64,000 bases of DNA from an archaeon. GTDB lineage: Archaea > Thermoproteota > Nitrososphaeria > Nitrososphaerales > Gagatemarchaeaceae. Of this stretch, positions 20,835 through 39,914 are shown in pieces. Each line of letters begins with the position of its first letter. Positions within the stretch are counted from its first letter, which is position 1. A program made the translations under genes and the position numbers. The notes under the pieces are model-generated. The model saw only the letters and a list, made by a program, of their open reading frames with translations, was not told the origin of the DNA and did no database searches. The DNA is taken from contig JAKAUC010000007.1 in NCBI GenBank assembly GCA_021827865.1, forward strand, positions 10,981 through 74,980, in the 5' to 3' direction.

Positions 20835-20925
20835 GGGCCGGTCGTCTAGCATGGTTAGGACGTCGCCCTTACACGGCGAAACGCTCCGCGCGCCAGGGTC
20901 GGTGGTTCGAATCCGCCCCGGCCCA
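20835..20925 (+). tRNA. tRNA-Val(UAC) with a 16-nt intron in the variable loop (about 20881-20896)
   Basis: GGGCCGG/CCGGCCC, D arm GTCT-AGCATGGTTA-GGAC, and an intact anticodon arm TCGCC-CTTACAC-GGCGA. There are 21 nt before T arm GGTGG-TTCGAAT-CCGCC where 5 are expected. Confidence 0.75.
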
Positions 20926-24280: not shown

Positions 24281-25039
24281 CTAGGTCACCCTGGTCCCAT
24301 CTGTCAGGAATATGTCTGCCTCTTCGAGGCTTATCGACCTCGAGGATAGGACGGGCCCGAACTCGAACGACCTGCTCCTGTTGATAGGCTGTCCGCCGAC
24401 CAGCCTGTTGAAGGGGGGCATCACCGTCAGCCTACCCTTCCCCCGGAGCTTGGAGGGGTACCCTGCCCCCTCCATCAGCTTGGCGACGTCGTAGTCAGCG
24501 GTCACCCACACCGACTCCCTCGTCCTGGCGCCCATGCCGTCACGCATCTCGTAGGTGAAGTGGGAGTGGCCTATGACGAGGTTCCTCGTCGCAATGGCTT
24601 CCTCCGAGGGCCAGGCATGCCCGTGGGCAACCCCGATCTGCTTCCGCCCCTCGCCCAAGGTGGTCCCCTGAGACCTGTCCAGTTTCACGCGCGGGGGGAG
24701 GACCGTCTTGATGTTCCCGTCGTGGTTCCCCGGGACGACCTCCACGACCTCGAAGAGGTCCAGCATGGTGTCGAAGAACCACGGGACCGCCCCCCAGTCT
24801 ATGTCCTCCACCTTGCCGACCGTGTGCTTGACGTCTCCCAACACGACCAGCCTTGTTGTCGAATACTCCTCAGCAGCCCGCTTCACCCTCTCAACCATCC
24901 TCACCGAGTAGGCGGGTAGGCGGAAGCCTTTCTTCGCCATCTCCTTCTCCAGGCCGAGGTGCAGGTCGGATATCAGCAGGGTCTTGCTCTCGGCCGTAGA
25001 GAACACTAGCGCGGCTTCTCCGGGGACTATCTTCAGCAA
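24281..25039 (-). CDS. Calcineurin-like metallophosphoesterase (MPE / SbcD-like; Lhr- or ligase-associated type)
   Basis: ISDLHLG...VLGDVKH...VPGNHDG...HGH...GHSH metal-binding motifs. Confidence 0.8.
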   Translation of the reverse strand: MLKIVPGEAALVFSTAESKTLLISDLHLGLEKEMAKKGFRLPAYSVRMVERVKRAAEEYSTTRLVVLGDVKHTVGKVEDIDWGAVPWFFDTMLDLFEVVEVVPGNHDGNIKTVLPPRVKLDRSQGTTLGEGRKQIGVAHGHAWPSEEAIATRNLVIGHSHFTYEMRDGMGARTRESVWVTADYDVAKLMEGAGYPSKLRGKGRLTVMPPFNRLVGGQPINRSRSFEFGPVLSSRSISLEEADIFLTDGTRVT

Positions 25040-25040
25040 G

Positions 25041-25724
25041 CTACGCTATCAGCGGGAGGACCTGGCTCCCCACGAAGTTCTTGAACTCCGACAGCTCCAT
25101 CTTGCTGAACCCCGTCAGGATGCAGTTCCTCGTGAGCCCGAACACGTAGCCGTACTCCCTGCTCTTGAAGACGATGTACCACAGCTTCCCATGAGTAAGG
25201 TAGTCGGTGTAGAGGCTCGTGTTGCCCAGTTCAGCGCCATAGAGGGACAGCTTGGTGATGTTAGGCAGGTCGACGTCCGAATAGAATATCACCTTGGTGT
25301 CGTCGAAGTTCGCCTCATGGAACTTCCGTAAGGTCTCCGGGTCGATCCTGGCCTCGACCACCTGACCAAGGCTCATGAACACCGCCTTGCTCATCTCGTT
25401 CGCTATGTTGTTAGCTCGGTTTTTCTTGTCGTAGACAGTGAGGAACATCCTATCCTTGTACATTCCGAAGGAGAAAGGCGCTTCATAGGTCCTGGGGACC
25501 GGGACCGACTCGCCCCTGTGGGGGACCACGAAGACGGAGTCAAATGAGAACTTCCCCTCGAGTGACCCCTTGCCGACCCCCAGGTCTGTTATCTCTGACA
25601 CGAGCTTGAACTCCTTCCCCTCTACGCTCGTCTCCGTCTCTATCCTGAACGACTTCAACTTCTCCGCGAGGGTGTCGATCTCGTAGTTCTCCCTCACGAG
25701 GAAGACCTTGCCTGCTAGCACCAA
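25041..25724 (-). CDS. Hypothetical protein (227 aa) embedded between Lhr and MPE; no motif recognised
   Basis: Clean ORF. It lies 36 nt downstream of the Lhr stop and its stop abuts the MPE start. Confidence 0.6.
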   Translation of the reverse strand: MVLAGKVFLVRENYEIDTLAEKLKSFRIETETSVEGKEFKLVSEITDLGVGKGSLEGKFSFDSVFVVPHRGESVPVPRTYEAPFSFGMYKDRMFLTVYDKKNRANNIANEMSKAVFMSLGQVVEARIDPETLRKFHEANFDDTKVIFYSDVDLPNITKLSLYGAELGNTSLYTDYLTHGKLWYIVFKSREYGYVFGLTRNCILTGFSKMELSEFKNFVGSQVLPLIA

Positions 25725-25760: not shown

Positions 25761-28700
25761 TCAGCTCCCCCAGTACTGCCTGGTCGTGACGAACCGAATC
25801 TTAGCTTCGAGCAGGTCCCTGTAGAACGCCTCCTCGTCATCATGCATCTCGGCTAGGATCCTGGACGCGGTCTGCGGGCCGATGCCATAGACGGTCTGGG
25901 CGACGACCGCCTTCCTTCCGTACGACAGGACCAGGTCGGCCCCCCGCCTGGCCCGCGAAAGCTCAGAGCGCTCCTCTTCGTTCAGCTGGGTCCTGGCCTC
26001 TCTCTTCTTGATCAGTTCGGAGAGCTTGGCCGTCCCACAGTAACATGGAGCCAGGAGCCCTGACCCGCAGCTTCCGCACCGGGGCTCCTCAGGAACTTCG
26101 CCCACTGTGGTCTGGCCTTGGTCCGAGCCACACTTCACGCAAAGGAGGCTCACCTCGGTCCCGAATATGGTCGCCTTCAGCCTCTGGTAGGACGACTTCC
26201 CCAGTGAGTCGGGGGCAACGGCCTCGGGAACCTCGAGGTACCGATAGAGGAGACTGTAGGCGATGGGGGTGGGCCTCTCACCCGCTTGGAAGGTCTCAAC
26301 CGCTATCTTGCCGCCGGCCACCGCCATGAGAATCTCCTTCGAGTGACCCATGTCAATCAGGTCCCTCCCGGTCTCCTGCAGGGCCTCCTCGAAGATGGGG
26401 GTCTTTTCGAAGCGGGTAGGGAGGGAGCAGAGGTTGGGGTGGGCAATCAATTTGCCCCGCTTCAGCGCTCCGAACCTCTCGGCCACGAACTTCACTCGAG
26501 CAGGGAAGGGGAAGTTCCTCTGGGCGGCGACCGCATAGGTCCTCTCGAGCTCCTCGGGGGTCAGGCGCATCAGCTCCGTGGCAATCGCCTCAAGGTCCAG
26601 CTCCCCAGTCTCCGTGGTGAGCTCCATCAGAAGCCTGTATCCGTCGAGCCACCAGACTCTCACCAGTCCCCGCCTAGACAGGATCTCTTCGAACACATAG
26701 GCGAACGTCCTGTTGACCGACTCCCCGAAGCAGAGATGGACGATCAGGTACCGGCCGAAACCTTCGAAGAGGACCAGCCTATCCGATGGGACCGACGCTC
26801 CCATCTTCTTCTGCTCGGCGATCTGGTCCACAACGAGGGCCCGCGCAGCCGTGTCCCCGGGGATGTGCCCCTCGACCCTCTCGACCGCGTCTTGACCCGC
26901 GTCCAGCGCGTCTGAGACCTCCCTTCTCAGGCTGCCGGTCTCCACGGCGAGCTCGTATGGAATCGGCAGCATCTCGCCGTCCCACCCGGGGACGGCGGCG
27001 AGCGGGTCTTCAACGGGGGTCACATAGATCTTCCTGTCCTCGGCTATCTGTTCCACCTGCCACACCCGCCCCTTGATCACGAAGTGTATGCCGACCTTCG
27101 CCTTCAGAAGGACGAACTCCTCGCCCAGTATGCCCACGGTCTGGTTGGTGGACACGTCCACGACAAGGTATCTGGTCTCGTCGGGGATCATCGACAGGTT
27201 CTCGTAGTAGTACTCCCTAGTCAGTCTGGTCCTGGACAGCGTCGTGCCGTCGAATCTGAGCTTCCGGAGCTCTGCGAGATAGCCCACGGTTCTGAGGAAT
27301 GCGTCGTCTTGGAGGCCCTCGAACGGGGCTGCTTTCCTCACCTCCGCCAGCATCCTACTTGCCTCCATCGTCTCGAAGTCCATGAGGTACCCTGCGACCT
27401 GGTGGGCAAGCACGTCCAGGGAGTTCGAGTATGGCCTGGTGGGCTCGATCCTCTTCTGGGCGGCCGAGCGGATGCTGGCGGTGGACTCCATGATGTCATC
27501 CGCCGAGACCGTGACGAGGACGCCCTTGGAGACCCTCCCGAGCCTGTGGCCGCTCCTGCCGACGCGCTGCACGAGGCTTGTGACCTGCCTTGGTGACATG
27601 TACTGGACCACCAGGTCCACAGACCCCACATCGATGCCCAGCTCCAGGGTGCTGGTGCAGACCAGAGCCTTCAGCTCTCCGGCCTTGAACGCCTGCTCCA
27701 CCCGCTCTCGCTCCTCCCTGGGCAGCGACCCGTGATGGACCCCGACGTCCTTCCTGAGCCTGGCCAGCTTCTCTCCAAGCATCTCGGCGAGGGTCCTGCT
27801 GTTGACGAAGATGAGGGTCGAAGTGTGGCCGTCGATCAGGGCGTTGATCCGGGTGAGCCTGGCCGCCAGGTCGGGCGCCGAGTATGTCTCCTTGGCGGCT
27901 GACTGGCTCGCTGGGTCGGGGACCGGGTACTCGATGGCGAAGGCGAATTCCTTGGGCGCATCAGCCTTCACGATCTTAACGCTCCGGTTTCCGAAGAGGA
28001 ATTTGGCCGCCACCGCTGGAGTCCCGACGGTGGCGGAGAGCGCGACCAGCTGGAAGTCGGGAGCCACCTTCCGGAGCCGCTCCAGCCCTACGCAGAGCTG
28101 CACCCCTCGCTTGCTCTCTACCAGGTTGTGGAGCTCATCCACTACCACTGCCTTCAGGTGCGACAAGTTGTCCCTCATCCTCCGGCCCGGGAGTATCGCC
28201 TGCAATGTCTCCGGGGTGGTTACCAAGACGTCAGGGGGGTGCGTCGACTGCTTCGACCTCTGGGACTGGGGGGTGTCCCCATGCCTGACGTCGACCGTGA
28301 GCCCTAGCCTGGCGCACCAGGCTTGTAACCGCTTCAGCATGTCGCGGTTCAGGGCTCGCATGGGGGTGATGTACAGCAGCGAAATCCCGTCCCCGTGACC
28401 TTCAGACAACAGCCTGCTCAGCAGCGGAAGCATTGCGGCTTCGGTCTTCCCGGAACCTGTGGGGGCTACCACGAGGACGTCTCCCCCTCGAGAGACGAGG
28501 GGCCATGCCTCGATCTGGGGGGGCGTGGGCTCAACCATCCCCGTGTCTGCCAGGAACCCCCTCACGGCTGGAGCGAGAGCTTCGAACGCGGTCCGAGCAG
28601 ACAACAACGGTGAGAGGACCGCCACCCGATTTAAGGTGTCACGAGAGAGGGGTCGGTGAAACTGTATTCCGGCCTCCCGGGGGGCAATGTCTAAAAGCGC

Positions 28701-28769
28701 CCGGGGCCCGCGCAGGCTCGAAGCTTGTCCCGAGGCGTCAGAGAGGTCTCCCAGGAGAGGCCGTCTCAT
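25761..28769 (-). CDS. lhr: Lhr-type DExH helicase (Lhr-core + DEAD-associated domain) with a C-terminal Zn ribbon and HhH
   Basis: APTGSGKTEAAMLP, VVVDELHNL, SATVG, HHGSL, QRVGRSGHR, DVLAHQVAGYL, CVKCGS...CGSCGS, YGIGPQTASRIL. The true start is probably downstream of 28769, for example the GTG near 28625, because the first 45-50 codons overlap the divergent gene. Confidence 0.85.
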   Translation of the reverse strand: MRRPLLGDLSDASGQASSLRGPRALLDIAPREAGIQFHRPLSRDTLNRVAVLSPLLSARTAFEALAPAVRGFLADTGMVEPTPPQIEAWPLVSRGGDVLVVAPTGSGKTEAAMLPLLSRLLSEGHGDGISLLYITPMRALNRDMLKRLQAWCARLGLTVDVRHGDTPQSQRSKQSTHPPDVLVTTPETLQAILPGRRMRDNLSHLKAVVVDELHNLVESKRGVQLCVGLERLRKVAPDFQLVALSATVGTPAVAAKFLFGNRSVKIVKADAPKEFAFAIEYPVPDPASQSAAKETYSAPDLAARLTRINALIDGHTSTLIFVNSRTLAEMLGEKLARLRKDVGVHHGSLPREERERVEQAFKAGELKALVCTSTLELGIDVGSVDLVVQYMSPRQVTSLVQRVGRSGHRLGRVSKGVLVTVSADDIMESTASIRSAAQKRIEPTRPYSNSLDVLAHQVAGYLMDFETMEASRMLAEVRKAAPFEGLQDDAFLRTVGYLAELRKLRFDGTTLSRTRLTREYYYENLSMIPDETRYLVVDVSTNQTVGILGEEFVLLKAKVGIHFVIKGRVWQVEQIAEDRKIYVTPVEDPLAAVPGWDGEMLPIPYELAVETGSLRREVSDALDAGQDAVERVEGHIPGDTAARALVVDQIAEQKKMGASVPSDRLVLFEGFGRYLIVHLCFGESVNRTFAYVFEEILSRRGLVRVWWLDGYRLLMELTTETGELDLEAIATELMRLTPEELERTYAVAAQRNFPFPARVKFVAERFGALKRGKLIAHPNLCSLPTRFEKTPIFEEALQETGRDLIDMGHSKEILMAVAGGKIAVETFQAGERPTPIAYSLLYRYLEVPEAVAPDSLGKSSYQRLKATIFGTEVSLLCVKCGSDQGQTTVGEVPEEPRCGSCGSGLLAPCYCGTAKLSELIKKREARTQLNEEERSELSRARRGADLVLSYGRKAVVAQTVYGIGPQTASRILAEMHDDEEAFYRDLLEAKIRFVTTRQYWGS

Positions 28770-30731
28770 CTTACCACAGTAAAGGAGATCATCCTGGAGA
28801 ATTTCATGAGTTACGAGTATGCCCGGATACCCCTCCGCGAGGGCTTGAACCTGGTAGTCGGTCCCAACGGGGCCGGCAAGTCCTCGGTCCTCCTCGCCAT
28901 TTCCGTAGCGTTCGGGCAGGCGTACACCGAAAGGTCAAGGAAGCTCTCAGACCTCATCAGGCGCGGTAAAGACATCGCCCGGGTTTCTCTCATCTTCGAC
29001 AACTCCCAGAAGGCGGGGCGGAGGCCGATTCCCTACTCGAAGTCGGACACCTTCATGCTCAGCAGGTACCTGAGGCGCGACGGTTCGTACTGGTTCGAGG
29101 CGGACTACAAGGAGATAGACAAGAGCGAGGTCGTGAGGCTCCTCAGCGAGTTCGGCATCAACCCAGACAACCTGCTCATCATCATGCACCAGGGGATGAT
29201 AGAGGAGCTGGGCGCCGTCACCCCCCAGGAGCGCCTGAGGATGGTCGAAGAGGCGGTCGGGTTCTCCGAGTACAGGCAGAGGATCACGTTGGCCGAGCAG
29301 GAGCTGGGCGGACTGGTGGGAGAGGAGAGCTCCCTCCTCCAACTCATAGACAACGCCAACCAGGCCCTCGAATACTGGAAGCAGGTGTACGACCGCTACC
29401 AGGAGAAGCGGAGGCAAATCGAACACAGAGACCTCCTGACCAAGGAGCTTCTGTGGAGCACTGAGAACAAGCTCAGCAAGGCACTACAGGGCGCCGAGGA
29501 GAAGATTGCTTCGAAGACGAAGGCCCTTGAAGACCTGAAGTCGCAGCAGACCGAGGTCTCTTCCGACGCCGAGCAGACCCACCAGACGCTCCTGGACAAG
29601 CAGGTGGAACTGCGCAAGCTCTACTATGCCCTCGTGCGGGCGGAGTCGGAGAAGGCGAAGGACGAGTCGGCTCGCGACGCCTACCGGTCGATAAAGGACG
29701 ACCTCTCAGGGCTGTCAACCACGATTGACGAGCTCCTGTCAAAAGGGGGGGACAGGAGCGCGAAGAGGCTCAAGGAGCTCGCCGCGTACATCGAGCAAAA
29801 GAGCCTATCGGCCGAAGAGGATGCCCAGCGCCGCAAGACGGAGCTGGACAGAGAAGTCTCTTCCCTGCAGCCTGACATCACCAAGACCGAGGACCTCATC
29901 AGGCGCGCTACCGACAGCTACGTGTCCTTCAAAGTCAAGGCTGAGGTACTCTCGTACCGCATCAGAGTGACGGAGTCTGACCTCCACGACCTCGAGAGGA
30001 CTGCTAGAGAGTACAAAGCGGAGCTGGACAAACTGGCTCCGGACCTCGAAAGGGCGGGGGGCAGGATGGAGACAGCGCGCCAGCCCTATGAAGTCTCAGA
30101 GGAGCTGAAGCTTGTGTCCGCCCACATCCAAAAGATGCAGGACGTGCCCGACGACGCGGAGAAAATCTACAACGACTACTCTGGCAACATCGAAGAGCTG
30201 AAGGCGAAGCTCGCAATGCTCCAGGAGAACAAGAAGTCCATGCTCTCGGAGCTGGACTCGCGTAAGGGCATCTGGAGGAAAGCCATGGAAGATCTGGTTG
30301 AAACTGTGGATCCATCCTATCAGGCGGTCCTGTCCGCAACGGACGCCAGCGGCTTCATAAAGTTCGAGCAGGCTGACACCATCGAAGACGCCGGCCTCGA
30401 CCTATACGTCGGGTTCAGGGGGGGCGCCCCCACCACCCTCGATCCGTTCACCCAGAGCGGCGGGGAGCGGTCGGTGGCCCTGATGGCTTTCATCCTGTCC
30501 CTCCAGGCGAGGATAGTCTCCCCCCTGAGGGCGATGGACGAGTTCGACATACATATGGACCCCAAGAACAGGGAAGCGATGTTCAAGATGATTCTGTCGC
30601 AGATGAAGCAGAGGGAGGCCTCACAATACATCGTAATCACCCCGTCGATACTGACGGTGTTCGACAGGAGCGCCCACGTCATCACGGTCCAGGCGGTCCA
30701 CGGCTCGTCCGAGGTCAAGGAGCTGAAGTAA
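28725..30731 (+). CDS. SMC-superfamily ATPase, short coiled coil, no hinge or zinc hook; Smc5/6-like head motifs
   Basis: ILENFMSYEY, Walker A GPNGAGKSS, Q-loop IIMHQG, signature QSGGERS, Walker B AMDEFDIHMD, C-terminal QYIVITPSIL. About 330 aa of heptad-rich sequence separates the head halves. Confidence 0.8.
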   Translation: MSRGVREVSQERPSHLTTVKEIILENFMSYEYARIPLREGLNLVVGPNGAGKSSVLLAISVAFGQAYTERSRKLSDLIRRGKDIARVSLIFDNSQKAGRRPIPYSKSDTFMLSRYLRRDGSYWFEADYKEIDKSEVVRLLSEFGINPDNLLIIMHQGMIEELGAVTPQERLRMVEEAVGFSEYRQRITLAEQELGGLVGEESSLLQLIDNANQALEYWKQVYDRYQEKRRQIEHRDLLTKELLWSTENKLSKALQGAEEKIASKTKALEDLKSQQTEVSSDAEQTHQTLLDKQVELRKLYYALVRAESEKAKDESARDAYRSIKDDLSGLSTTIDELLSKGGDRSAKRLKELAAYIEQKSLSAEEDAQRRKTELDREVSSLQPDITKTEDLIRRATDSYVSFKVKAEVLSYRIRVTESDLHDLERTAREYKAELDKLAPDLERAGGRMETARQPYEVSEELKLVSAHIQKMQDVPDDAEKIYNDYSGNIEELKAKLAMLQENKKSMLSELDSRKGIWRKAMEDLVETVDPSYQAVLSATDASGFIKFEQADTIEDAGLDLYVGFRGGAPTTLDPFTQSGGERSVALMAFILSLQARIVSPLRAMDEFDIHMDPKNREAMFKMILSQMKQREASQYIVITPSILTVFDRSAHVITVQAVHGSSEVKELK

Positions 30732-30735
30732 CTTC

Positions 30736-31494
30736 TTGGAACAGACCAAGCTCGACGACTACCTCAGGGTGATAGAGCTATGCCGCGACGTCGAGACCAG
30801 CAGCGCGAACCCCTTCGACGTGGACATAAGGGAGAAGATACTGCTGTTGAAGCAGAGGCTCCCGGAGCTCAAGCTCCTGGACGAACTGTTGGTGGACTCG
30901 GAGGCGATGCTCGAGCTGGCGCAGATAGTGAAGCTTCAGGACCAGTGGCTGAAGTCGAGAGCTTCGGCTCTCTTCATCGACCCTCTTCTCATCCAGCTCA
31001 AGGTGAAGCTCCTCTCCAAGGAAGCCCTCACCGAGGCGTTCGTCAGGAGCTGGCACCCGATAGCCCAGGTGGACCAGCTGTCTCCCAGGGGGCTGGAGAA
31101 GGCCTTCGTCTACTGGCGCGAGCTAATCCCGCTCTCTGAGAGGTTCAAAGACCAGTTCGGGAACTACGGAGTCAGGCCGGGGACGGTCGATTACGCCGAC
31201 CTGGTCAGCACCGGCGTCTTCACCAGGGAGGAGTTCGAGGTCGAACTGACCCAGTTGTACGAAGAGCTCCTGAGGGAGTCCAACGGAGACTGGGTCGACT
31301 ACCGCCAGTTCATCGGGGTCGAAAGCTTCGAGATGAAGGTCAGGAGGGCATACCTCCTCGCGTTCCTCATCAGCGAAGGGAGGGCCCTCCTGAAGACCGA
31401 GCCTCTCACGGGAAGAATCTGGACCATGGCCCTGGCCGAGAAGACGAAGGGGACTCCGAAGTCTGTCGCGATATCGATAACGGGCGAGAATTGA
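30736..31494 (+). CDS. Kleisin-like (ScpA-like) subunit
   Basis: N-terminal NPFDVDIREKILLLKQRL...MLELAQIVKLQDQWL and C-terminal winged-helix-like VRRAYLLAFLISEGRALLKTEPLTGRIW resemble the ends of ScpA. Only a 4-nt gap follows the SMC-like gene. Confidence 0.6.
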   Translation: MEQTKLDDYLRVIELCRDVETSSANPFDVDIREKILLLKQRLPELKLLDELLVDSEAMLELAQIVKLQDQWLKSRASALFIDPLLIQLKVKLLSKEALTEAFVRSWHPIAQVDQLSPRGLEKAFVYWRELIPLSERFKDQFGNYGVRPGTVDYADLVSTGVFTREEFEVELTQLYEELLRESNGDWVDYRQFIGVESFEMKVRRAYLLAFLISEGRALLKTEPLTGRIWTMALAEKTKGTPKSVAISITGEN

Positions 31495-32054
31495 TGGAGT
31501 CGGACACCGCTGACAGGGCGCTTCTGGAGAGGAAGGTCAGGCGGGCCTTCCAGGTCTTAGTCCTCCAGCGTGGGCGTAACCCCGGCGTCAAGGGGTGGGA
31601 GATGAAGCGGTACCTGGGGAGGGACTACCGCAAGATCATCGGAGTCCTCTCAGAAGACGTCGCACCCATGGGCCTCGAGGTGTTCGAGGTGAAGGGCGTC
31701 GACGGGACCGACGATTCATCCCGCTTCCTCCTGAGGTTCAAGGAGCCTCCTACCGTCACGGAGGCGGAAACGTCGGGCATCAGGATAGACGACCTGGCTG
31801 TCCTCGCGGCAACCATCGCCTTCGTCAACTCCAAGACCGGCCGTGTCGCCAGGCGCGAGGTCGAGCAGTTCCTCAGGGAGAAGTTCCCCAGGTGGAGGAT
31901 CGACTACTCGCTCGACCGGTACGTGAAGCGCGGCTACCTAGAGCAGGACGAACGGACCATGGTGCACATAGGCTGGAGGACCAGAGCGGAGGTGGACGAG
32001 AAGACTCTCATGACGCTGATACTGTCGCGCGCTCAGGAAGCGGCGAAGAAGTAG
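31491..32054 (+). CDS. Tandem winged-helix kite-like subunit (ScpB / Nse3-MAGE-like)
   Basis: LERKVRRAFQVLVLQRG...GWEMKRYLGRDYRKIIGVLSEDVAPMGLEVFEVKG...SRFLLRF, then a second WH (VARREVEQFLREKFP...YVKRGYLEQDE). Its start overlaps the stop of the kleisin gene (TTGATG). Confidence 0.55.
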   Translation: MMESDTADRALLERKVRRAFQVLVLQRGRNPGVKGWEMKRYLGRDYRKIIGVLSEDVAPMGLEVFEVKGVDGTDDSSRFLLRFKEPPTVTEAETSGIRIDDLAVLAATIAFVNSKTGRVARREVEQFLREKFPRWRIDYSLDRYVKRGYLEQDERTMVHIGWRTRAEVDEKTLMTLILSRAQEAAKK

Positions 32055-34900
32055 CGCCTGCGCAGCGCCTCCCTCTCTCCTTCGATGATGAGTTCAACGA
32101 CATCCGTCCCTTCCTTCCTCATCTTCGCGGCCAGCGCTGCAGCTTCTGCCAGCCTTATCCCCCTCCCGGCCAGGATCATGTCAGCGGCGTGACCGTACTC
32201 CTTCCTCAGCTCCGACGACTTTCTGAGCGCCTCGACCACCTTCAGCTTGGCTCCGGTAAGAGCCGCCCTGCTCCTGGCCTTCATGGCCAGCGAGAAGACG
32301 TTCTCATAAGAGTCGGTCGAGAGCCCCAACCTAGGCTTCCCGCACGCGGGGCAGCTCTCGAGCCCCTCTAGGTCTGCGACCTTTCTAAGCTCCAGGAAGT
32401 TCCAGCAGCTGGTGCAGACCGCCACGAGGAACGTCTCGTTGACCCTTGCCCTGGTCGACTGCTTCAGGAGGGCCCTCAACCGCTCTGGTGAGACTATCTC
32501 TCCACGTCTGCTGATCTCCTCCACCCCGATTCTGGCGATGGGGGTGAGCCCCTCGTACTCTACCAGCTTCACGTCAATCGCGCCTGCGTTAATCTTCTCG
32601 ATCACGTCGGCAGCCGCCGAGAGGTCGAAGTCGTCGTGGAAAATCATGCTCATCGCCTCTTCGTAGACGGGGGTGTCCCTGAGGGCTTCGATGATCCCGG
32701 CGATGGAGACACTTGCGTAGTCTGCGTCCTTGGCTATGGCGCCGCACTTCTTGCCCGCGTGGATGAGGCGCCGCTTGAAGATCCCGCTCCTCTCTACGGC
32801 TTTCTCAGTCGCTGCCTTCAGGTCGAGCTTGTGGAGCTCCTCGACCACCGAAAGGACGACGGCGGGCGTCACCTCGGCCTCGATCACAATCCGGTAAGGG
32901 TCCTGGTGGACGGCTACCGACTGCCCTATCCGTTCGGAAATGAGGTGACCGAGGACCCTGGCCAGCAGCCTGTTCACCCTGTGCCCGAAGGCCGCCTGTA
33001 TGACCAGGTACTTGTCCCACTTCTCGATGGTCACAAGCCTCTCTGAGGGTATGGGGAGCTTCGCAGCCTGCTGCTCCGCGACCTCCTTCAAGGATTCCTG
33101 GAGGGCGTCCTTGGAGGCCGGGTAAGTCCTGGCCAGCTCGTCCAGGTATTCAGCCTCTCCACCCTTCTCCAACTCCTCGGCGTACCTCCTTCGTACGGAC
33201 CCTACCTCTGCCGCGACCTCCATCGGGACAGGTATCTCATCTCCCACCCAGTGGGGGACTGCACCCGTCGGATCATCCTCTGACCTCACGTATACCTTGT
33301 TCCCGTAGATCTGCTCTACCTTCCAGCACCTCCCCGCCTCCACGAACTTGACACCGACCTCCCCGTACTCCGACACGAACGCCTCGTCCAAGGTGCCGAC
33401 GAACGTGTCCCCTTCGATGACCAGGTACTGCTTCTCGTCCGGAATCATCGAGAGGTTGTCGAAGTAGTACTGGAACAGCGGCTTGACGTCCCTGGCGCGG
33501 AAGACCTTCCCGTCCGATTCACTGTAGTAGGCCAGGCGGGGATAGCGCTCCCGCATGTAGGTGAGCACCTTCTTCATCCTCTCCCCGTCGAGTTCCGCAT
33601 AGGCATAGCTCCTCTTGAAGAAGGCCACCAGGTCGTCGAAGTTCCAGTTCCCCTGCTCGATGAGCAGCCCGGCGACCTGGTGTATGGCCACGTCGTAGGG
33701 GTTGAAGATCGGCTCGAGGGGTTCCAGCTCGCCCATCACCGCCTTCCTGCAGAGCACGGCGGCTTCCAGCGTGTCGTCAGAGTCCTGGGTGATCACCAGC
33801 CCATTGGAGACCTCACCCACCCTGTGCCCGCTGCGTCCTACCCTCTGAATCAGCCTGGTCACCTGCCTCGGGGAGTTGTACTGAATCACATACTCAAGGA
33901 ACCCTATGTCTATGCCGAGCTCGAGGCTGCTCGTGCATATTACTCCGAGCAGCTTCCCATCCTTGAGGCTCCTCTCGACGGCTTCCCTGGTCGCCTTGGA
34001 CAGCGAGCTGTGGTGGACCGCTATGGCGAATCCTGGATCCCACACCCTGAATCGACTCGACAGCGCCTCGGCCTCCGACCGCGTGTTCGTGAAAATGAGG
34101 ACTGACCTGTATTTCTCCACCAGCTCCCTGACGGTCCTGAGCCTGGCCGCGACTTCGGGGTAGGAGTATATGGCATCGGCGAGGATCCTGTCGTCCCCCG
34201 TCGCCCTGGGGGCCACCACCTTCAGCGACAGGCTCTTCTCAACCGGGACGCGCACCACCTCGCATTCTCTCCCGTTCCCCACTAGGAACTGAGCGACCTT
34301 CTCCGGGGAGCCGACGGTGGCCGACAGACCGACTACCTGGAACTCCTTCTCTGCCACGTCCCTCAGCCTCTCGAGCCCGACGCTCAGTTGGCTCCCTCTC
34401 TTGTCCTCCGAGAGCTCGTGCACCTCGTCCACCACCACCCACCTCAGCTTCGCCAGGTTCTGCCTGATCCTCCTCCCCACGAGCATGATCTGGAGGGTCT
34501 CCGGCGTCGTGATGAGTATGTCGGGCGGGGCCAGGCTCAGGTTGGTCCTCTCTGCCTGGCTACTGTCTCCGTGCCTCACTCCCAGCCTGATGTCGAAGCG
34601 CTTGCACCACCACTGCATCCTGTCGAGCATGTCCCTGTTGAGAGCTCGGAGCGGGGTGATGTACAACAGTTTCGTCCCCTTCTCTCTCGTCTCGCCCTCG
34701 CGGATGATGGCGTCAAGAATCGGAAGCAGGGCCGCTTCAGTCTTCCCAGTCCCCGTCGGGGCCATGAGGAGCGCATTCTTTCCTTTCATCACTATGGGGA
34801 GGAGCTTCGCCTGGGGGTCGGTGGGGGAGTCGAATCCCCGTTCCTTCAAGGCTGCGAGCAGGGGAGGCGAAAGGAACTGGAAGACGTTCTGCCCTTGCAC
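32033..34900 (-). CDS. lhr: Second Lhr-type DExH helicase paralogue (Zn ribbon + HhH-like tail)
   Basis: APTGTGKTEAALLP, VVVDEVHEL, SATVG, HHSSL, QRVGRSGHR, DVAIHQVAGLL, CTSCWN...CPACGK. Confidence 0.85.
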   Translation of the reverse strand: MQGQNVFQFLSPPLLAALKERGFDSPTDPQAKLLPIVMKGKNALLMAPTGTGKTEAALLPILDAIIREGETREKGTKLLYITPLRALNRDMLDRMQWWCKRFDIRLGVRHGDSSQAERTNLSLAPPDILITTPETLQIMLVGRRIRQNLAKLRWVVVDEVHELSEDKRGSQLSVGLERLRDVAEKEFQVVGLSATVGSPEKVAQFLVGNGRECEVVRVPVEKSLSLKVVAPRATGDDRILADAIYSYPEVAARLRTVRELVEKYRSVLIFTNTRSEAEALSSRFRVWDPGFAIAVHHSSLSKATREAVERSLKDGKLLGVICTSSLELGIDIGFLEYVIQYNSPRQVTRLIQRVGRSGHRVGEVSNGLVITQDSDDTLEAAVLCRKAVMGELEPLEPIFNPYDVAIHQVAGLLIEQGNWNFDDLVAFFKRSYAYAELDGERMKKVLTYMRERYPRLAYYSESDGKVFRARDVKPLFQYYFDNLSMIPDEKQYLVIEGDTFVGTLDEAFVSEYGEVGVKFVEAGRCWKVEQIYGNKVYVRSEDDPTGAVPHWVGDEIPVPMEVAAEVGSVRRRYAEELEKGGEAEYLDELARTYPASKDALQESLKEVAEQQAAKLPIPSERLVTIEKWDKYLVIQAAFGHRVNRLLARVLGHLISERIGQSVAVHQDPYRIVIEAEVTPAVVLSVVEELHKLDLKAATEKAVERSGIFKRRLIHAGKKCGAIAKDADYASVSIAGIIEALRDTPVYEEAMSMIFHDDFDLSAAADVIEKINAGAIDVKLVEYEGLTPIARIGVEEISRRGEIVSPERLRALLKQSTRARVNETFLVAVCTSCWNFLELRKVADLEGLESCPACGKPRLGLSTDSYENVFSLAMKARSRAALTGAKLKVVEALRKSSELRKEYGHAADMILAGRGIRLAEAAALAAKMRKEGTDVVELIIEGEREALRRRYFFAAS

Positions 34901-35077: not shown

Positions 35078-35512
35078 ATGACCCGCCTCATCAGCCCCTA
35101 TGAGATAGTCGCGAAGTCAGCCCTCCCCGCCCTGAGGGCCATGGTGGCGAGAAGGCTGCAGGAGGAGTACCGTCTCACCCAGCAGGAGGTCGCGAAGCGC
35201 CTCGGGGTCACCCAGGCCTCAGTGAGTAACTACGCGAGAAAGACGAGGGGGGTCATGGTCAACCTCGAGGGCGACCCGACCGTGACGAAGGCCGCGGACA
35301 AGATAGCCAAGGAGCTCTCCTTGGACCATCCCGACACCAGAGAGGCGCTCCGGTCGATGACCGAGGTCCTCGACTACATCAGGTTCAACAAGATGATGTG
35401 CCTCCTGCACGGCGACCTTGAGCCCGACTTCAAGGTGGAAGGCTGCTACGCCTGCGAAGGCACCTTTTCCGTAAAGGATTTTGACAGGCTGAAGTTGCTC
35501 GTCAGCAGCTGA
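35078..35512 (+). CDS. HTH (Cro/XRE-like) transcriptional regulator with a Cys-containing C-terminal domain
   Basis: LTQQEVAKRLGVTQASVSNYARKTRG is a helix-turn-helix. The C-terminus is MMCLLHGD...EGCYACEG. Confidence 0.6.
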   Translation: MTRLISPYEIVAKSALPALRAMVARRLQEEYRLTQQEVAKRLGVTQASVSNYARKTRGVMVNLEGDPTVTKAADKIAKELSLDHPDTREALRSMTEVLDYIRFNKMMCLLHGDLEPDFKVEGCYACEGTFSVKDFDRLKLLVSS

Positions 35513-35514
35513 AA

Positions 35515-36441
35515 TTGCTAGCCGATCCCAAGCCAAGTTGGCTCACTGTAAAACCTCCCATCGGGGAGAACTACGACGACCTGAAGGCCCTCTTCGGCCG
35601 CTTGAACCTGCACACGGTCTGCGAGGAAGCCCACTGTCCGAACGTCCACGAATGCTGGGGGGGCGGGACGGCCACCCTGATGCTGATGGGGGACGTCTGC
35701 TCGCGGGCATGCCGGTTCTGCATGGTCACCCCGGGGAAGCCCCAGGGGGTCCTGGACGAGCTCGAGCCAGAGAACGTCGCATTCGCCCTTTCCCAGATGG
35801 GCCTGACCTACGTAGTGCTGACCTCTGTAGACAGAGACGACCTGCCTGACGGCGGGGCTTCCCACATCGCCCGCACGGTCAAGCTCGTGAAGGAGGAGAA
35901 CCCGGGGATGCTCGTCGAAGTCCTGATCCCAGACTTCCAGGGGGACCTCGACGGCCTGAGGGCTGTCGTCGAAGCGCGACCCGACGTCATAGCCCACAAC
36001 ATCGAGACCACTATTTCTCTCACCCACAGGGTGAGGGACCCGCGGGCGAACTACTGGCAGTCGCTCTCGGTCCTGCGGAACGTGAAGAAGCTGGACCCTG
36101 GCGTCTACACCAAGTCGTCCATAATGGTGGGCCTCGGGGAGTCAGAGGAGGAGGTATACCAGGCGATGACGCACCTGAGGCAGGCGGACGTGGACTTCCT
36201 CACGGTGGGACAGTACCTCCGCCCTTCCGCGCGCCACCTTAAAGTGGCCGATTACGTCGACCCCATACACTTCGGACGATACAGAGCCATGGGTGAAGAA
36301 CTCGGGTTCTTGTACGTCGCCTCGGGCCCGCTGGTGAGAAGCAGCTACCGCGCGGGGGAATTCTTCATCAGGACGGCCATCCAAAGGAACAGTAGAGCCC
36401 ACCAATCTTATATGGGCGCCGGAATCAGAAAAAATCCTTGA
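35515..36441 (+). CDS. lipA: Lipoyl synthase
   Basis: CEEAHCPNVHECW...MLMGDVCSRACRFC carries the two Fe-S cluster motifs. TTG start. Confidence 0.9.
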   Translation: MLADPKPSWLTVKPPIGENYDDLKALFGRLNLHTVCEEAHCPNVHECWGGGTATLMLMGDVCSRACRFCMVTPGKPQGVLDELEPENVAFALSQMGLTYVVLTSVDRDDLPDGGASHIARTVKLVKEENPGMLVEVLIPDFQGDLDGLRAVVEARPDVIAHNIETTISLTHRVRDPRANYWQSLSVLRNVKKLDPGVYTKSSIMVGLGESEEEVYQAMTHLRQADVDFLTVGQYLRPSARHLKVADYVDPIHFGRYRAMGEELGFLYVASGPLVRSSYRAGEFFIRTAIQRNSRAHQSYMGAGIRKNP

Positions 36442-38588
36442 CCGAAGAAGATTCCATGAAGAGGTCTGGCACCGACGCGGTACCACGAATCTTCAGCGAG
36501 TCTGATTTCAAGTTCGCCACTCCCGAAGAGTTTCTCTTTCAGAGGCTATCCCCCGACGGAGGCATCCGCGGGAAGGACCCAAACCTCTCACCGGATACTC
36601 TGAAACGGATCTACGAGCAGCTTGTTTTCGGCCGCCTCTTCGACGACAAGGCGACCAACCTCTCGACCCTCAGGGAGATCGGGACCTATGCGCCCGGCAA
36701 GGGGCAGGAGGCGGCGCAGATTGGGCCGGTCAACGCCCTGGAGCGGGGAGATTGGTACGTCCCCATGTACAGAGACTCCGCGGGTATGCTGGCCTTCGGG
36801 ATGCCCCCAGTCAAGCTGCTGCAGTACTGGGGCGGGGACGAGAGGGGGATGCAGACGCCCGGGGACCTGAACATGCTCCCGCTGGCCGTTCCAGTTGCCA
36901 CCCAGCTCCCTCACGCCGCGGGGCTCGCGATGGCGAAGCGCCTGCAGGGGGAGAAGTCAGTTGTATTCGTGGTCACCGGGGACGGCGGCACCTCCAAGGC
37001 GGACTTCCACGAAGCGATGAACATAGCCGGGGTCTACGACCTGCCAGTCATATTCGGGGTGGAGAACAACCAGTGGGCCCTCTCCGTCAGGAGGGGCGCC
37101 CAGACGGCGTCGAAGACCATCGCCCAGAAGGCAGTCGCCTACGGCTTCGAAGGGATCCTCGTCGACGGCAACGACGTCATCGCGTCCTATGAGGCTACCA
37201 AGTACGCGGTCGACAAGGCAAGGAGGGGCGGGGGACCCACCCTGATCGAGTACTCTACCTACAGGCTCGGCCCGCACACGACCGCCGAGCTTGTCTCCAA
37301 CAAGCTGAAGGCTCCGGATGAGGTCGCTGAATGGGAGCGGAGGAGCCCCATCGTCAGATTCGAGAAGTACCTGAGGTCGCGCGGCCTGCTGGACGACAAG
37401 ACGAAGGAGGCTGTCGCTGCCGCCGCCCAGGACAAGATGAACGAGGCGATAGCTGCCTACAGGGCGACCCCCCCCGTGGACCCGGAGGCGATATTCGACT
37501 ACACCTACTCCTCACTCACCCCAGTCCTCGCCATGGAGAAGGCCGAGTTTCTTGGGGGACAGTCTGGCCCAGCGGCTTCGGCGCCCGAGCCGTCGGCCAC
37601 CGGCGGGAAGCCGGGGATAAACATCAGGAACGCGGTCAACATGGCCCTCAGGGAGGGCCTGCGGCGCGACAGCAGGCTGGTGATATTCGGGGAGGACGTG
37701 GCAAAGAACGGCGGCGTCTTCCAGGTGACGCGCGGGCTTTTTGACGAGTTCGGCCCCAGCAGGGTCTTCGACACCCCCCTGGCCGAGCTCAGCATAGCTG
37801 GCATATTCGTGGGCCTCTCTATCGGCGGCATGGTCCCCGTGGCCGAGTTCCAGTTTGACGGCTTCACTTTCCCTGCCTTCGACCAGATCTTCAGTCACAT
37901 AGCCAGGATGAGGAACAGGACCAGAGGGAGGTTCGCACTCAGGGGTGTCATCCGATTCCCCTATGGGGCAGGCATACGACCCCCAGAGCTCCACTCTGAA
38001 TCCCCCGAAGCCTACTTCGCCCACACGCCGGGGCTGAAGGTCGTAGTCCCCTCCACCCCATATGACGCCAAAGGCCTCCTCGCATCCGCCCTGACCGACC
38101 CGGACCCGGTGGTGTTCATGGAGCCCAAGAAGATCTACGACTCCCCCAAGGCCGACGTCCCTGAGGAGGAGTACCGCATCCCCATAGGCAAGGCAAGTGT
38201 GGTAAGGCAGGGCAACGACGTCACGCTCGTCTCCTACGGCGCGATGATGGTCCCCACCGCACAGGCGGCGGAGGCGCTTCAGAGCGAGAGGTCTGTCTCG
38301 GCCGAAGTGGTCGACCTGCGAACCGTCTCCCCCATCGACTTCGAAACCGTGGTGGGATCGGTGCAGAAGACCGGAAGGCTCGTCGTCGTCCACGAAGCGC
38401 CCCGCAATGTCGGGATAGGGGCGGAGGTAGCGGCCACCGTGGCTGAGAGGGCCCTGGACTACCTGAAGGCGCCCGTCAGGAGGGTGACCGGCTACGACAT
38501 ACCCGTACCCCTGGCCAAGCTCGAGGACAACTATATCCCGAGCAAGGAACGCGTCATGAAGGCGGCCCTCGACGTGGTCGGCTACTGA
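36438..38588 (+). CDS. 2-oxoacid dehydrogenase E1 component, fused alpha + beta subunits (TPP-dependent)
   Basis: The alpha part has VVFVVTGDGGTSKADFHEAMN...VENNQWALS. The beta part has INIRNAVNMALRE...VFGEDV...GGVF...DTPLAE...RFPYGAGIRPPELHS. It is one continuous 716-aa frame. Confidence 0.85.
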   Translation: MTEEDSMKRSGTDAVPRIFSESDFKFATPEEFLFQRLSPDGGIRGKDPNLSPDTLKRIYEQLVFGRLFDDKATNLSTLREIGTYAPGKGQEAAQIGPVNALERGDWYVPMYRDSAGMLAFGMPPVKLLQYWGGDERGMQTPGDLNMLPLAVPVATQLPHAAGLAMAKRLQGEKSVVFVVTGDGGTSKADFHEAMNIAGVYDLPVIFGVENNQWALSVRRGAQTASKTIAQKAVAYGFEGILVDGNDVIASYEATKYAVDKARRGGGPTLIEYSTYRLGPHTTAELVSNKLKAPDEVAEWERRSPIVRFEKYLRSRGLLDDKTKEAVAAAAQDKMNEAIAAYRATPPVDPEAIFDYTYSSLTPVLAMEKAEFLGGQSGPAASAPEPSATGGKPGINIRNAVNMALREGLRRDSRLVIFGEDVAKNGGVFQVTRGLFDEFGPSRVFDTPLAELSIAGIFVGLSIGGMVPVAEFQFDGFTFPAFDQIFSHIARMRNRTRGRFALRGVIRFPYGAGIRPPELHSESPEAYFAHTPGLKVVVPSTPYDAKGLLASALTDPDPVVFMEPKKIYDSPKADVPEEEYRIPIGKASVVRQGNDVTLVSYGAMMVPTAQAAEALQSERSVSAEVVDLRTVSPIDFETVVGSVQKTGRLVVVHEAPRNVGIGAEVAATVAERALDYLKAPVRRVTGYDIPVPLAKLEDNYIPSKERVMKAALDVVGY

Positions 38589-38650
38589 ATAGGCTCCCCA
38601 CGAGCTGGCTGCACAGTTTTTAACCCTCCACCGGGTCGCCCGTATCTGTC

Positions 38651-39865: not shown

Positions 39866-39914
39866 CAGGGCGCCTCCCAGCAACGTTTAAGCCCGTAGAC
39901 AGCGGCGACCCCGT

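What the first reader, a model, noticed from the sequence alone, without database searches (positions are those of the whole stretch)
28725..32054. Compact hinge-less Smc5/6-like ATPase + kleisin + tandem-WH (MAGE/Nse3-like) kite operon
Three tightly coupled + strand genes: a 4-nt gap before the TTG at 30736, and a TTGATG stop/start overlap at 31491-31496.

Gene 1 (668 aa) has a complete ABC/SMC head: GPNGAGKSS, IIMHQG, QSGGERS, AMDEFD. Only about 330 residues separate the two head halves. The apex (around LLSKGGDRS) has neither a hinge domain nor a Rad50-type CxxC hook. Two head details are what I associate with eukaryotic Smc5/Smc6 rather than Smc1-4/Rad50. These are the N-terminal ...ENFMSYEY... 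and the C-terminal QYIVITPSIL, where other SMCs have an ITH/ISH His-loop.

Gene 2 (252 aa) has ScpA/kleisin-like N- and C-terminal ends. Gene 3 (187 aa) is a two-winged-helix kite whose first WH follows the MAGE-homology pattern (KV..lv.fL......i...EM...lg.dY......a...l...GlEv.EV......f.L). Together this looks like a miniature Smc5/6-Nse4-Nse3-type holocomplex in an archaeon. Its size and architecture differ from canonical archaeal Smc-ScpAB.
Basis: partly seen in the sequence, partly recalled or inferred. Interest (0 to 1): 0.85.

Follow-up and report, generated by a model that had tools for sequence, protein, structure and literature searches.

The report
Compact hinge-less archaeal Smc5/6-like complex
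This three-gene operon in a Nitrososphaerota archaeon encodes a relative of the eukaryotic Smc5/6 DNA-repair complex, a family already described in archaea, but here the SMC subunit has half-length arms ending in a bare hairpin with no hinge or zinc hook.

Summary
Three coupled + strand genes (668, 252 and 187 aa) sit at the stated coordinates with all the stated motifs.

- Gene 1's heads match eukaryotic Smc5/Smc6 better than any other solved SMC. This is clearest for the C-terminal head.
- The gene 2 family carries the Nse4 C-terminal domain: 20 of 28 members hit Pfam Nse4_C, and a family profile hits yeast Nse4 in the PDB.
- The gene 3 family is a tandem winged-helix protein. Its only kite-like matches are to Nse1, Nse3 and MAGE, and they are weak.
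- The three genes are conserved together in 35 of 41 related loci across TACK archaea.

The family itself is not new. SMC5/6-related archaeal SMCs (Yoshinaga & Inagaki 2021) and SMC5/6-related SMC–kleisin–kite operons (van Hooff et al., bioRxiv 2024/25) are published.

What those papers do not mention is the architecture. The two heads are only 315 aa apart. They are joined by two long helices linked by a 4-residue turn, and the protein has no cysteine. Relatives of 548–685 aa share this build. Other relatives carry a hinge (982 aa, same three genes) or a CxxCG zinc hook (about 1,030 aa, gene stands alone).

The likely role is an ATP-gated DNA clamp in repair, given the flanking Lhr helicases and a PdeM-like phosphoesterase. 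That role is inferred, not shown.

The parts
28725..30731 (+). Gene 1: 668-aa SMC5/6-related SMC-type ATPase, compact form
   Evidence: ORF. Pfam SMC_N 8.7e-36. Best PDB matches are Smc5 and Smc6. Constant 668-aa length in more than 100 clusters.
28779..29294 (+). N-terminal head half (residues 19-190), with Walker A GPNGAGKSS (28860-28886) and Q-loop IIMHQG (29178-29195)
   Evidence: Family HMM boundaries. Motif positions. N-head alone scores 59 bits against Smc5/6 and 49-54 against other SMCs.
29262..29741 (+). Ascending coiled-coil helix (residues 180-339)
   Evidence: AF2 model: one continuous helix, pLDDT 80-94 from residue 240 onward.
29742..29753 (+). Apex: a 4-residue turn K340-G-G-D343, with no hinge and no CxxC
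   Evidence: AF2. In the 44-sequence family alignment, length variation and gaps centre on residues 341/342 and fall off on both sides. No CxxC in any short member, and the query has 0 Cys. Pfam finds only coiled-coil noise here.
29754..30239 (+). Descending coiled coil (helix 344-446, break 447-458, helices 459-527), including the conserved head-proximal DVPDDAEKIYNDY segment
   Evidence: AF2. Family consensus.
30237..30719 (+). C-terminal head half (residues 505-665), with signature QSGGERS (30453-30473), Walker B AMDEFD (30531-30548) and the Smc5-type QYIVITPSIL in place of the His-loop (30624-30653)
   Evidence: Searched alone, only Smc5 and Smc6 chains pass E<1e-5, and the ITP motif aligns with human and yeast Smc5.
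30736..31494 (+). Gene 2: 252-aa Nse4-related kleisin. The C-terminal winged-helix region lies at about residues 150-235 (about 31183-31440).
   Evidence: This protein alone has no Pfam hit. The family profile hits yeast Nse4 at 1.5e-4 and EID3 at 2.5e-3. Nse4_C is found in 20 of 28 family members. The N-terminal 11 residues are conserved, which supports the TTG start.
31494..32054 (+). Gene 3: 186-aa tandem winged-helix kite, Nse1/3-like (alternative TTG start at 31491)
   Evidence: AF2 secondary structure shows H-H-H-E-E twice plus a C-terminal helix (pLDDT 61). Foldseek top hits are 7dg2_A and 7dg2_C (Nse1-Nse3-Nse4) and 9bd3_C (MAGE-A4), E about 1e-2. Pfam SMC_Nse1 in 4 of 29 and MAGE in 2 of 29 members.
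25761..28769 (-). Context: Lhr-type helicase, divergent from gene 1. The real start is probably near 28604, which leaves a shared upstream region of about 120 bp.
   Evidence: Pfam DEAD, Helicase_C, WH_Lhr and DEAD_assoc. NCBIfam ligase-associated DEXH helicase 5.5e-118. Orthologues are 947 aa. TTG codons at ORF codons 55-56.
25041..25724 (-). Context: 227-aa protein of unknown family ('U227'), a conserved neighbour of the three genes
   Evidence: No Pfam, NCBIfam, PADLOC or PDB match. Present upstream in 22 of 31 loci, including 13 of 21 distant ones.
24281..25039 (-). Context: PdeM/SbcD-related metallophosphoesterase, last gene of the Lhr-U227-phosphoesterase string
   Evidence: NCBIfam TIGR00024 SbcD_rel_arch 4.7e-23 and TIGR04123 PdeM 1.1e-15, both below their cut-offs.
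32033..34900 (-). Context: second Lhr-type helicase, convergent with gene 3. The two 3' ends overlap by 22 nt.
   Evidence: A convergent Lhr is found in 13 of 13 close and 5 of 22 distant loci, and also in Thermofilales L001.

Best explanation
The operon encodes a homodimeric SMC-kleisin-kite complex of the archaeal SMC5/6-related lineage, in a reduced form.

Each 668-aa ATPase folds back on itself. Its N- and C-terminal halves form one ABC head with all catalytic motifs present. About 155 residues per strand form an antiparallel coiled coil roughly 20-24 nm long, which ends in a 4-residue turn with no hinge domain and no zinc hook.

Inferred from the homologous complexes:
- The Nse4-like kleisin bridges the two heads, with its N-terminus on one neck and its C-terminal winged helix on the other cap.
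- It carries a dimer of the Nse1/3-like kite.
- ATP-driven head engagement clamps DNA on top of the heads against the kleisin/kite module, as in Smc5/6, MukBEF and Smc-ScpAB.
- With no apical connection, the arms cannot close a hinge-sealed lumen. The complex is therefore more likely an ATP-gated DNA clamp, sensor or tether than a long-range loop extruder.

The conserved neighbourhood (two Lhr helicases and a PdeM/SbcD-like phosphoesterase) points to DNA repair or handling of replication stress.

Shown: the identity of the three proteins, the hairpin architecture, and conservation of the three genes as a unit. Inferred: stoichiometry, the clamping mechanism and the repair role.
For: Smc5/6 affinity of the heads. 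JGI already names relatives 'SMC protein 5'.

Kleisin. Kite.

The three genes are conserved in 35 of 41 loci, in Nitrososphaerota, Thermofilales, Thermoprotei and Bathyarchaeia. The junctions are tightly coupled: median ORF gaps of +1 and -4 nt.

Hairpin architecture:
- AF2 predicts helix 180-339, turn 340-343, helix 344-446, with pLDDT 80-94 in the arm.
- The inter-head linker is 213-346 aa in the short family, against 640-708 aa in long relatives and about 830 aa in canonical Smc.
- There is no CxxC and no conserved apex.

A hinge-bearing 982-aa homologue has the same kleisin (hhalign 2e-23) and kite (3.6e-21), and an Lhr nearby.

Repair context: Lhr and PdeM-like neighbours.

The setting is core chromosome. 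SRP RNA, 5S rRNA, tRNAs and housekeeping genes are in the window, and gene order is conserved down to about 60% kite identity.

Published framework: PMC8665677; bioRxiv 10.1101/2024.01.07.573240 and its supplement.
Against: - No complex prediction or experiment was possible, so the subunit contacts are assumed by homology.
- The AF2 heads were poorly modelled (pLDDT below 50), and the alignment was shallow (at least 87% identity).
- The kite evidence is weak: Foldseek E about 1e-2 on a pLDDT-61 model, and Pfam E about 0.01 in 6 of 29 members.
- My neighbour-joining head tree has low support: 42% for the family and 33% for family plus eukaryotic SMC5.
- Lhr linkage drops to 5 of 22 in distant loci, so the repair inference rests on moderate association only.
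- The arm tips could still dimerise in ways that sequence does not reveal.
Confidence: 0.72

Rival explanations
1. It is the lineage's main chromosome-organising condensin-like machine. It would be functionally equivalent to Smc-ScpAB and would fold or segregate the chromosome despite its short arms.
For: The locus is in the core genome, inherited vertically, and conserved across many TACK lineages. Many archaea keep only one of the two SMC types (PMC8665677).
Against: Hairpin arms with no apical closure do not fit the segment-capture and loop-extrusion models built on hinge-closed rings. In van Hooff Table S3, the three Nitrososphaerales families seen with an Nse1/3-related kite also have a ScpB-like kite, which implies a second, canonical complex. 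The neighbours are repair-type genes.
Confidence: 0.12
2. It is an SMC-based defence system against plasmids or viruses, in the manner of Wadjet or Lamassu. It would sense foreign DNA and recruit a nuclease.
For: Gene 1 gets weak PADLOC hits to LmuB (1.2e-17), mad3 (1.7e-28) and JetC (1.6e-11). JetB is at Foldseek rank 5 for the kite. Eukaryotic Smc5/6 restricts viral DNA (PMC10586767, from the abstract listed). A phosphoesterase lies nearby.
Against: Genes 2 and 3 have no PADLOC hit, and there is no JetD or LmuA-type effector in the operon. The locus is syntenic with housekeeping genes in all close relatives and is not in a variable island. The PADLOC matches are generic ABC-head or coiled-coil similarity.
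Confidence: 0.06
3. It is a Rad50-like DNA-end tethering ATPase that works with the neighbouring SbcD/PdeM-like phosphoesterase. The kleisin and kite would be accessory.
For: It has a short antiparallel coiled coil like Rad50 and RecN. Close long relatives carry a Rad50-type CxxCG at the apex. An SbcD-related phosphoesterase and Lhr lie in the divergent gene string.
Against: The query and all 44 short relatives lack CxxC. Rad50 models score far below SMC models: 1.8e-18 against 1.8e-50. The phosphoesterase is in a different transcription unit, whereas the kleisin and kite are the translationally coupled partners.
Confidence: 0.08

Closest known systems
Archaeal SMC5/6-related SMC / Nse4-related kleisin / Nse1,3-related kite operons (van Hooff et al., bioRxiv 10.1101/2024.01.07.573240; 'SMC5/6-related aSMC' of Yoshinaga & Inagaki 2021, PMC8665677)
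   Same: Same three protein families, same gene order (SMC-kleisin-kite), and same TACK distribution. A hinge-bearing 982-aa member found here (L164) has clearly homologous kleisin and kite.
   Different: Here the SMC is 668 aa, with a 315-aa inter-head linker against 640-708 aa. It ends in a hairpin with no hinge. The main text and held supplements of the van Hooff preprint and the main text of Yoshinaga & Inagaki 2021 never describe a hinge-less or short form.
Eukaryotic Smc5/6-Nse4-Nse1/Nse3
   Same: Best head similarity, including the ITP(K/S)(L/I)L motif in place of the His-loop. Nse4_C-type kleisin winged helix. Kite fold closest to Nse1, Nse3 and MAGE.
   Different: One SMC gene, so presumably a homodimer. 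One kite gene with no RING domain. No Nse2 or Nse5/6 genes in the operon or among its conserved neighbours. No hinge. Arms less than half as long.
Canonical prokaryotic Smc-ScpAB
   Same: Homodimeric SMC + kleisin + kite architecture and operon logic. NCBIfam's best model for gene 1 is SMC_prok_A, at 172 bits against a cut-off of 729.
   Different: No member of the gene 2 or gene 3 family matches ScpA or ScpB models. The C-terminal head is far closer to Smc5. No hinge. The linker is 315 aa against about 830 aa.
Hinge-less SMC-like ATPases: Rad50, ASRP (ClsN/Sph), RecN, Lamassu LmuB
   Same: An ABC head plus a short antiparallel coiled coil with no SMC hinge.
   Different: Rad50 and ASRP dimerise through a CxxC zinc hook (PMC9389158), which is absent here. 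None of these proteins is known to pair with a kleisin and a kite (my own knowledge). The ASRP model scores only 44 bits against a cut-off of 300.
MukBEF / MksBEF / Wadjet JetABC
   Same: SMC + kleisin + kite. JetB appears among the weak fold matches for the kite.
   Different: From my own knowledge, those systems have a different gene order, hinge-bearing SMC subunits of more than 1,000 aa, and a JetD nuclease in Wadjet. There are no specific sequence matches here.

Membership tests
Archaeal SMC5/6-related SMC-kleisin-kite complex | SMC head closer to eukaryotic Smc5/6 than to canonical SMC or Rad50 | tested here: met
   PDB ranking for the whole protein and for each head half. Eukaryotic SMC5 are the first non-family hits I looked up among 1.84 billion representatives. 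My own neighbour-joining tree agrees but is weakly supported.
Archaeal SMC5/6-related SMC-kleisin-kite complex | Adjacent Nse4-related kleisin | tested here: met
   The family profile hits Nse4 (1.5e-4) and EID3 (2.5e-3). Nse4_C is found in 20 of 28 members. The window protein on its own gives no hit.
Archaeal SMC5/6-related SMC-kleisin-kite complex | Adjacent Nse1/3-related kite (tandem winged helix) | tested here: inconclusive
   The top Foldseek hits are Nse1, Nse3 and MAGE-A4, but E is about 1e-2 on a pLDDT-61 model. Pfam SMC_Nse1 and MAGE appear in 6 of 29 members at E about 0.01. The profile found no PDB sequence match. The direction is consistent, but it is not significant alone.
SMC proteins in the strict sense | Central hinge dimerisation domain between long coiled-coil arms | tested here: not met
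   315-aa linker. AF2 hairpin with a 4-residue turn. The apex is unconserved and variable in length. There is no SMC_hinge signal, whereas the 982-aa relative P0414 gives SMC_hinge as its top hit.
SMC / ABC ATPase head | Walker A, Q-loop, signature motif and Walker B with the catalytic Glu | tested here: met
   Motifs located at residues 46-54, 152-157, 577-583 and 603-608. These positions are invariant or nearly so in the 44-sequence family alignment.
Canonical Smc-ScpAB | ScpA-family kleisin and ScpB-family kite | tested here: not met
   No ScpA or ScpB Pfam or NCBIfam match for the window proteins or any family member. Pyrococcus ScpA C-domain scores only E = 0.3 against the kleisin profile.
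Rad50 / ASRP (ClsN, Sph) | CxxC zinc hook at the coiled-coil apex | tested here: not met
   0 Cys in the query. No CxxC in the 44 short relatives or in 42 SMC ORFs from related loci. CxxCG is present only in the long Bathyarchaeia relatives.
Wadjet / Lamassu defence systems | Associated nuclease effector (JetD or LmuA) and island-like distribution | tested here: not met
   No such gene in the operon or in 80 related loci. The chromosomal setting is syntenic and housekeeping.
Eukaryotic-type Smc5/6 holocomplex | Smc5/Smc6 heterodimer, Nse1 RING plus Nse3 kite pair, Nse2, Nse5/6 | tested here: not met
   The operon has one SMC gene and one kite gene, and the 187-aa kite has no RING domain. Other subunits elsewhere in the genome could not be searched.

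The most novel reading that the evidence does not exclude
Compact SMC-kleisin-kite complexes with bare hairpin arms are a widespread natural 'minimal SMC machine' in TACK archaea. They would work with no apical dimerisation at all.

Within this one SMC5/6-related family the apex has been exchanged repeatedly between three forms: a hinge (982 aa, with kleisin and kite), a Rad50-like CxxCG zinc hook (about 1,030 aa, gene stands alone) and a plain hairpin (548-685 aa, with kleisin and kite).

If so, the head/kleisin/kite DNA clamp would be the conserved functional core of the Smc5/6 lineage. It would also give a living series of intermediates between SMC-type and Rad50-type architectures.
Probability: 0.4. 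Interest if true: 0.75.

Novelty: new variant of a known kind. Interest (0 to 1): 0.55.

Why it matters
The origin of Smc5/6 and the role of the hinge and long arms in SMC action are both open questions.

This is a small, homodimeric, three-gene Smc5/6-like complex (668 + 252 + 187 aa) that naturally lacks a hinge yet keeps its kleisin and kite. It would be a tractable model for structural and single-molecule work. It tests directly whether head-level DNA clamping is enough for function. It also shows how apex modules (hinge, zinc hook, hairpin) interchange within a single lineage.

The conserved pairing with Lhr helicases, a PdeM-like phosphoesterase and an uncharacterised 227-aa protein gives concrete leads on what the ancestral Smc5/6-type machine did in archaea.

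The headline claim, however, is not new: an Smc5/6-Nse4-Nse3-like complex in an archaeon is already in the literature.

Tried and rejected
- **Shallow profiles.** Profiles of genes 2 and 3 built from relatives at 78% identity or more found nothing in the PDB. They had to be rebuilt from distant loci.
- **Genome scan.** The genome-contig scan used generic Walker A/B patterns and returned mostly canonical SMCs. Only two true relatives came back, L001 and L002. The metagenome scan seeded with the kite alignment worked much better.
- **False SMC candidates.** The 668-aa ORF upstream of the kleisin in L127/L131 and the 682-aa ORF in L158 showed no similarity to gene 1. The first reads like an aconitase-type enzyme by eye, not by a tool. 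Seven kleisin-kite pairs therefore truly lack an adjacent SMC.
- **AF2 of gene 1.** The heads were unusable (pLDDT below 50), so I ran no fold search on that model.
- **U227.** It gave no Pfam, NCBIfam, PADLOC or PDB match, even with an 18-sequence profile.
- **ASRP/ClsN membership.** Considered and rejected: 44 bits against a cut-off of 300, and no hook.
- **Actinobacterial 'hinge-less SMC' (PMC12153180).** This is a different, bacterial group with no kleisin or kite context described.
- **Assembly truncation.** Rejected.
- **Defence system.** Rejected on context.
- **Head tree.** My neighbour-joining bootstraps are too weak to date or count apex changes.

Full report
**Observation**

The gene 1 stop is followed by a 4-nt gap before the TTG of gene 2. 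The TGA of gene 2 overlaps the TTG/ATG of gene 3, and homologues start 'ME...', which favours the ATG at 31494. All quoted motifs are present. Gene 1 has no cysteine. Its two head halves, as delimited by family HMMs, are 315 residues apart. The 668-aa length recurs in more than 100 clusters at 90% identity, on contigs up to 1.8 Mb, so this is not a truncated Smc. Named relatives are Nitrososphaerota/Nitrososphaerales MAGs. The window also carries archaeal SRP RNA, 5S rRNA, intron-bearing tRNAs and housekeeping genes, so it is core chromosome.

**Gene 1**

Pfam finds SMC_N (8.7e-36). NCBIfam's best model is archaeal-type SMC, far below its cut-off, followed by Rad50 and ASRP at much lower scores.

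Against all PDB sequences, the best matches are yeast Smc5 (1e-29), human SMC5 and Smc6, ahead of prokaryotic Smc heads and Rad50. Head-only PDB constructs are shorter than full-length chains, so I repeated the search with each head half separately:
- The C-terminal half hits only Smc5 and Smc6 chains at E<1e-5 (about 60 bits). In the whole-protein search, the Pyrococcus Smc C-head chains scored about 25 bits.
- SQYIVITPSIL aligns with human SQYFFITPKLL and yeast SQYFLITPKLL.
- The N-terminal half discriminates only weakly: 59 bits for Smc5/6 against 49-54 for other SMCs.

In an exhaustive HMMER search of 1.84 billion representatives, the hits that follow the archaeal family and that I looked up are eukaryotic SMC5. 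A neighbour-joining tree of concatenated heads gives the same picture but with weak bootstrap support.

**Genes 2 and 3**

Neither protein matches any Pfam, NCBIfam or PADLOC model on its own. Profiles built from close relatives find nothing in the PDB.

I collected distant relatives through genomic context. These were two genomes (Thermofilales L001 and Thaumarchaeota UBA160 L002) and 80 metagenome loci seeded with the kite alignment.

With a 28-sequence kleisin alignment:
- The top PDB matches are yeast Nse4 (1.5e-4) and human EID3 (2.5e-3), ahead of Pyrococcus ScpA (0.3).
- 20 of 28 members individually hit Pfam Nse4_C (best 3.5e-7), and none hits ScpA.

The kite evidence is weaker:
- No PDB sequence match.
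- Pfam SMC_Nse1 in 4 and MAGE in 2 of 29 members, at E about 0.01, and no ScpB.
- A low-confidence AF2 model (pLDDT 61) with a tandem winged-helix secondary-structure pattern.
- The best Foldseek matches for that model are two chains of the Nse1-Nse3-Nse4 complex and the MAGE-A4 homology domain, followed by JetB, at E about 1e-2.

I conclude that gene 2 is an Nse4-related kleisin. Gene 3 is a kite most like Nse1/Nse3, with no proof that it is specifically MAGE/Nse3-like.

**Conservation**

In loci with enough room, an SMC-like gene (570-725 aa) and the kleisin lie directly upstream of the kite in 35 of 41 cases. The junctions are tight or overlapping. Named members come from Nitrososphaerota, Bathyarchaeia, Thermoprotei and Thermofilales. 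Seven loci have kleisin-kite pairs with no adjacent SMC.

**Architecture**

The compact form is a family trait:
- Relatives at 33-45% identity are 548-685 aa long, with inter-head linkers of 213-346 aa. Long archaeal relatives have 640-708 aa, eukaryotic SMC5/6 about 680-716 aa, and canonical Smc about 830 aa.
- AF2 models the arm confidently (pLDDT 80-94): helix 180-339, a 4-residue turn K340-G-G-D343, helix 344-446, a short break, then helices running into the C-terminal head.
- In the 44-sequence alignment, gaps and length variation centre on residues 341/342 and fall off on both sides. This is what an antiparallel hairpin that is trimmed from its tip would show.
- The apex is not conserved, and no member has a CxxC.
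- Pfam finds nothing but coiled-coil noise at the apex.

**Unexpected relatives**

The long relatives closest to the query (P0371, P0383 and P0388; 1,016-1,047 aa; Bathyarchaeota) carry an invariant central CxxCG: EKPQI(K/R)CDKCGS or TCERCGS. This is a Rad50/ASRP-style zinc-hook signature. In three contigs for one cluster and one contig for another, these genes stand alone with no kleisin or kite beside them.

Another relative (P0414/P0534, 982 aa) has a globular middle region whose best Pfam hit is SMC_hinge (E 0.0075, nearly full length). It is followed by clear homologues of the kleisin (hhalign 2e-23) and the kite (3.6e-21), with an Lhr helicase nearby.

One SMC5/6-related family thus shows three apex types.

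**Context**

Gene 1 is divergent from a gene string on the - strand: an Lhr helicase, an unknown 227-aa protein (U227) and a PdeM/SbcD-related phosphoesterase. A second Lhr is convergent with the kite, and the two 3' ends overlap by 22 nt.
- The convergent Lhr is present in 13 of 13 close and 5 of 22 distant loci, and in Thermofilales.
- U227 is present upstream in 22 of 31 loci, including 13 of 21 distant ones. It has no detectable family.

This is moderate guilt-by-association evidence for a role in DNA repair or replication stress, in line with what Smc5/6 does in eukaryotes.

**What is already known**

Yoshinaga & Inagaki (2021) defined 'SMC5/6-related aSMC' in TACK archaea, including Thaumarchaeota.

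Van Hooff et al. (bioRxiv 2024/25) showed that TACK and Asgard archaea have a second SMC operon with an SMC5/6-related SMC, an Nse4-related kleisin and an Nse1/3-related kite. Their Table S3 lists Nse1/3-related kites alongside ScpB-like kites in Nitrososphaerales families.

Neither paper's main text, nor the supplements held for the van Hooff preprint, describes a hinge-less or short form or an Lhr link. The only 'hinge-less SMC' paper I found concerns marine Actinobacteria. ASRPs (ClsN/Sph) are a different, hook-bearing family.

**Mechanism and verdict**

The most likely reading is a homodimeric, kleisin-bridged, kite-loaded ATPase that clamps DNA at its heads. It would be a minimal Smc5/6-type clamp rather than a hinge-closed loop extruder, acting in repair together with Lhr-type helicases.

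Identity and architecture are well supported. Stoichiometry, clamping and the repair role are inferred. I could not test whether the same genome also holds canonical Smc-ScpAB, and I could not predict the complex.

Novelty: a new variant (hairpin-armed) of a known kind. Interest is moderate, 0.55.

Noticed in passing
window 25041-25724 (-): A 227-aa protein with no Pfam, NCBIfam, PADLOC or PDB match. It sits between Lhr and a PdeM-like phosphoesterase, and it is the most persistently conserved neighbour of the three genes: 22 of 31 loci, including 13 of 21 distant ones. It may be an extra partner or a repair factor.
   Followed up: partly
window 25761-28769 (-) and 32033-34900 (-): Two paralogous Lhr-type helicases (36-39% identical across relatives) bracket the three genes. 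The upstream ORF is probably over-extended by about 55 codons, because orthologues are 947 aa. The downstream Lhr overlaps the kite's 3' end by 22 nt, and the same overlap is seen in relatives.
   Followed up: partly
window 24281-25039 (-): A metallophosphoesterase with sub-threshold matches to archaeal SbcD-related phosphoesterase (4.7e-23) and to PdeM, the ligase-associated DNA-damage-response endonuclease (1.1e-15). It has no Pfam hit at E<=0.001. Together with Lhr it resembles the bacterial Lhr/PdeM damage-response pairing.
   Followed up: partly
P0371, P0383, P0388 (loci L161-L163, L165): Bathyarchaeia relatives of gene 1 (35-40% identical, 1,016-1,047 aa) carry an invariant central CxxCG zinc-hook-like motif and are stand-alone genes. 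The central arm of P0383 matches the NCBIfam ASRP model (4e-24). These are SMC5/6-type heads on a Rad50/ASRP-type arm.
   Followed up: partly
L127, L131, L143, L147, L152, L158, L159: Kleisin-kite pairs of this family with no adjacent SMC-like gene. The partner ATPase, perhaps the hook-type protein, must be encoded elsewhere.
   Followed up: no
L164:755-9703: The hinge-bearing 982-aa relative has the same kleisin and kite downstream. After a 365-aa gene on the opposite strand come a DUF763 gene and then an Lhr helicase. The Lhr association therefore also holds for the full-length form.
   Followed up: partly
window 5387-5517 (-), 5922-6041 (+), 18898-19212 (+), 20835-20925 (+): Two long tRNAs that presumably contain introns (131 and 91 nt; the second is tRNA-Val(TAC)), a lone 5S rRNA, and archaeal SRP RNA.
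   Followed up: no
window 35078-41318 (+): An HTH regulator, lipoyl synthase, a fused E1 alpha/beta 2-oxoacid dehydrogenase (716 aa), E2 and E3. This is a complete 2-oxoacid dehydrogenase cluster immediately downstream. The HTH and LipA part is syntenic with the three genes in close relatives.
   Followed up: no
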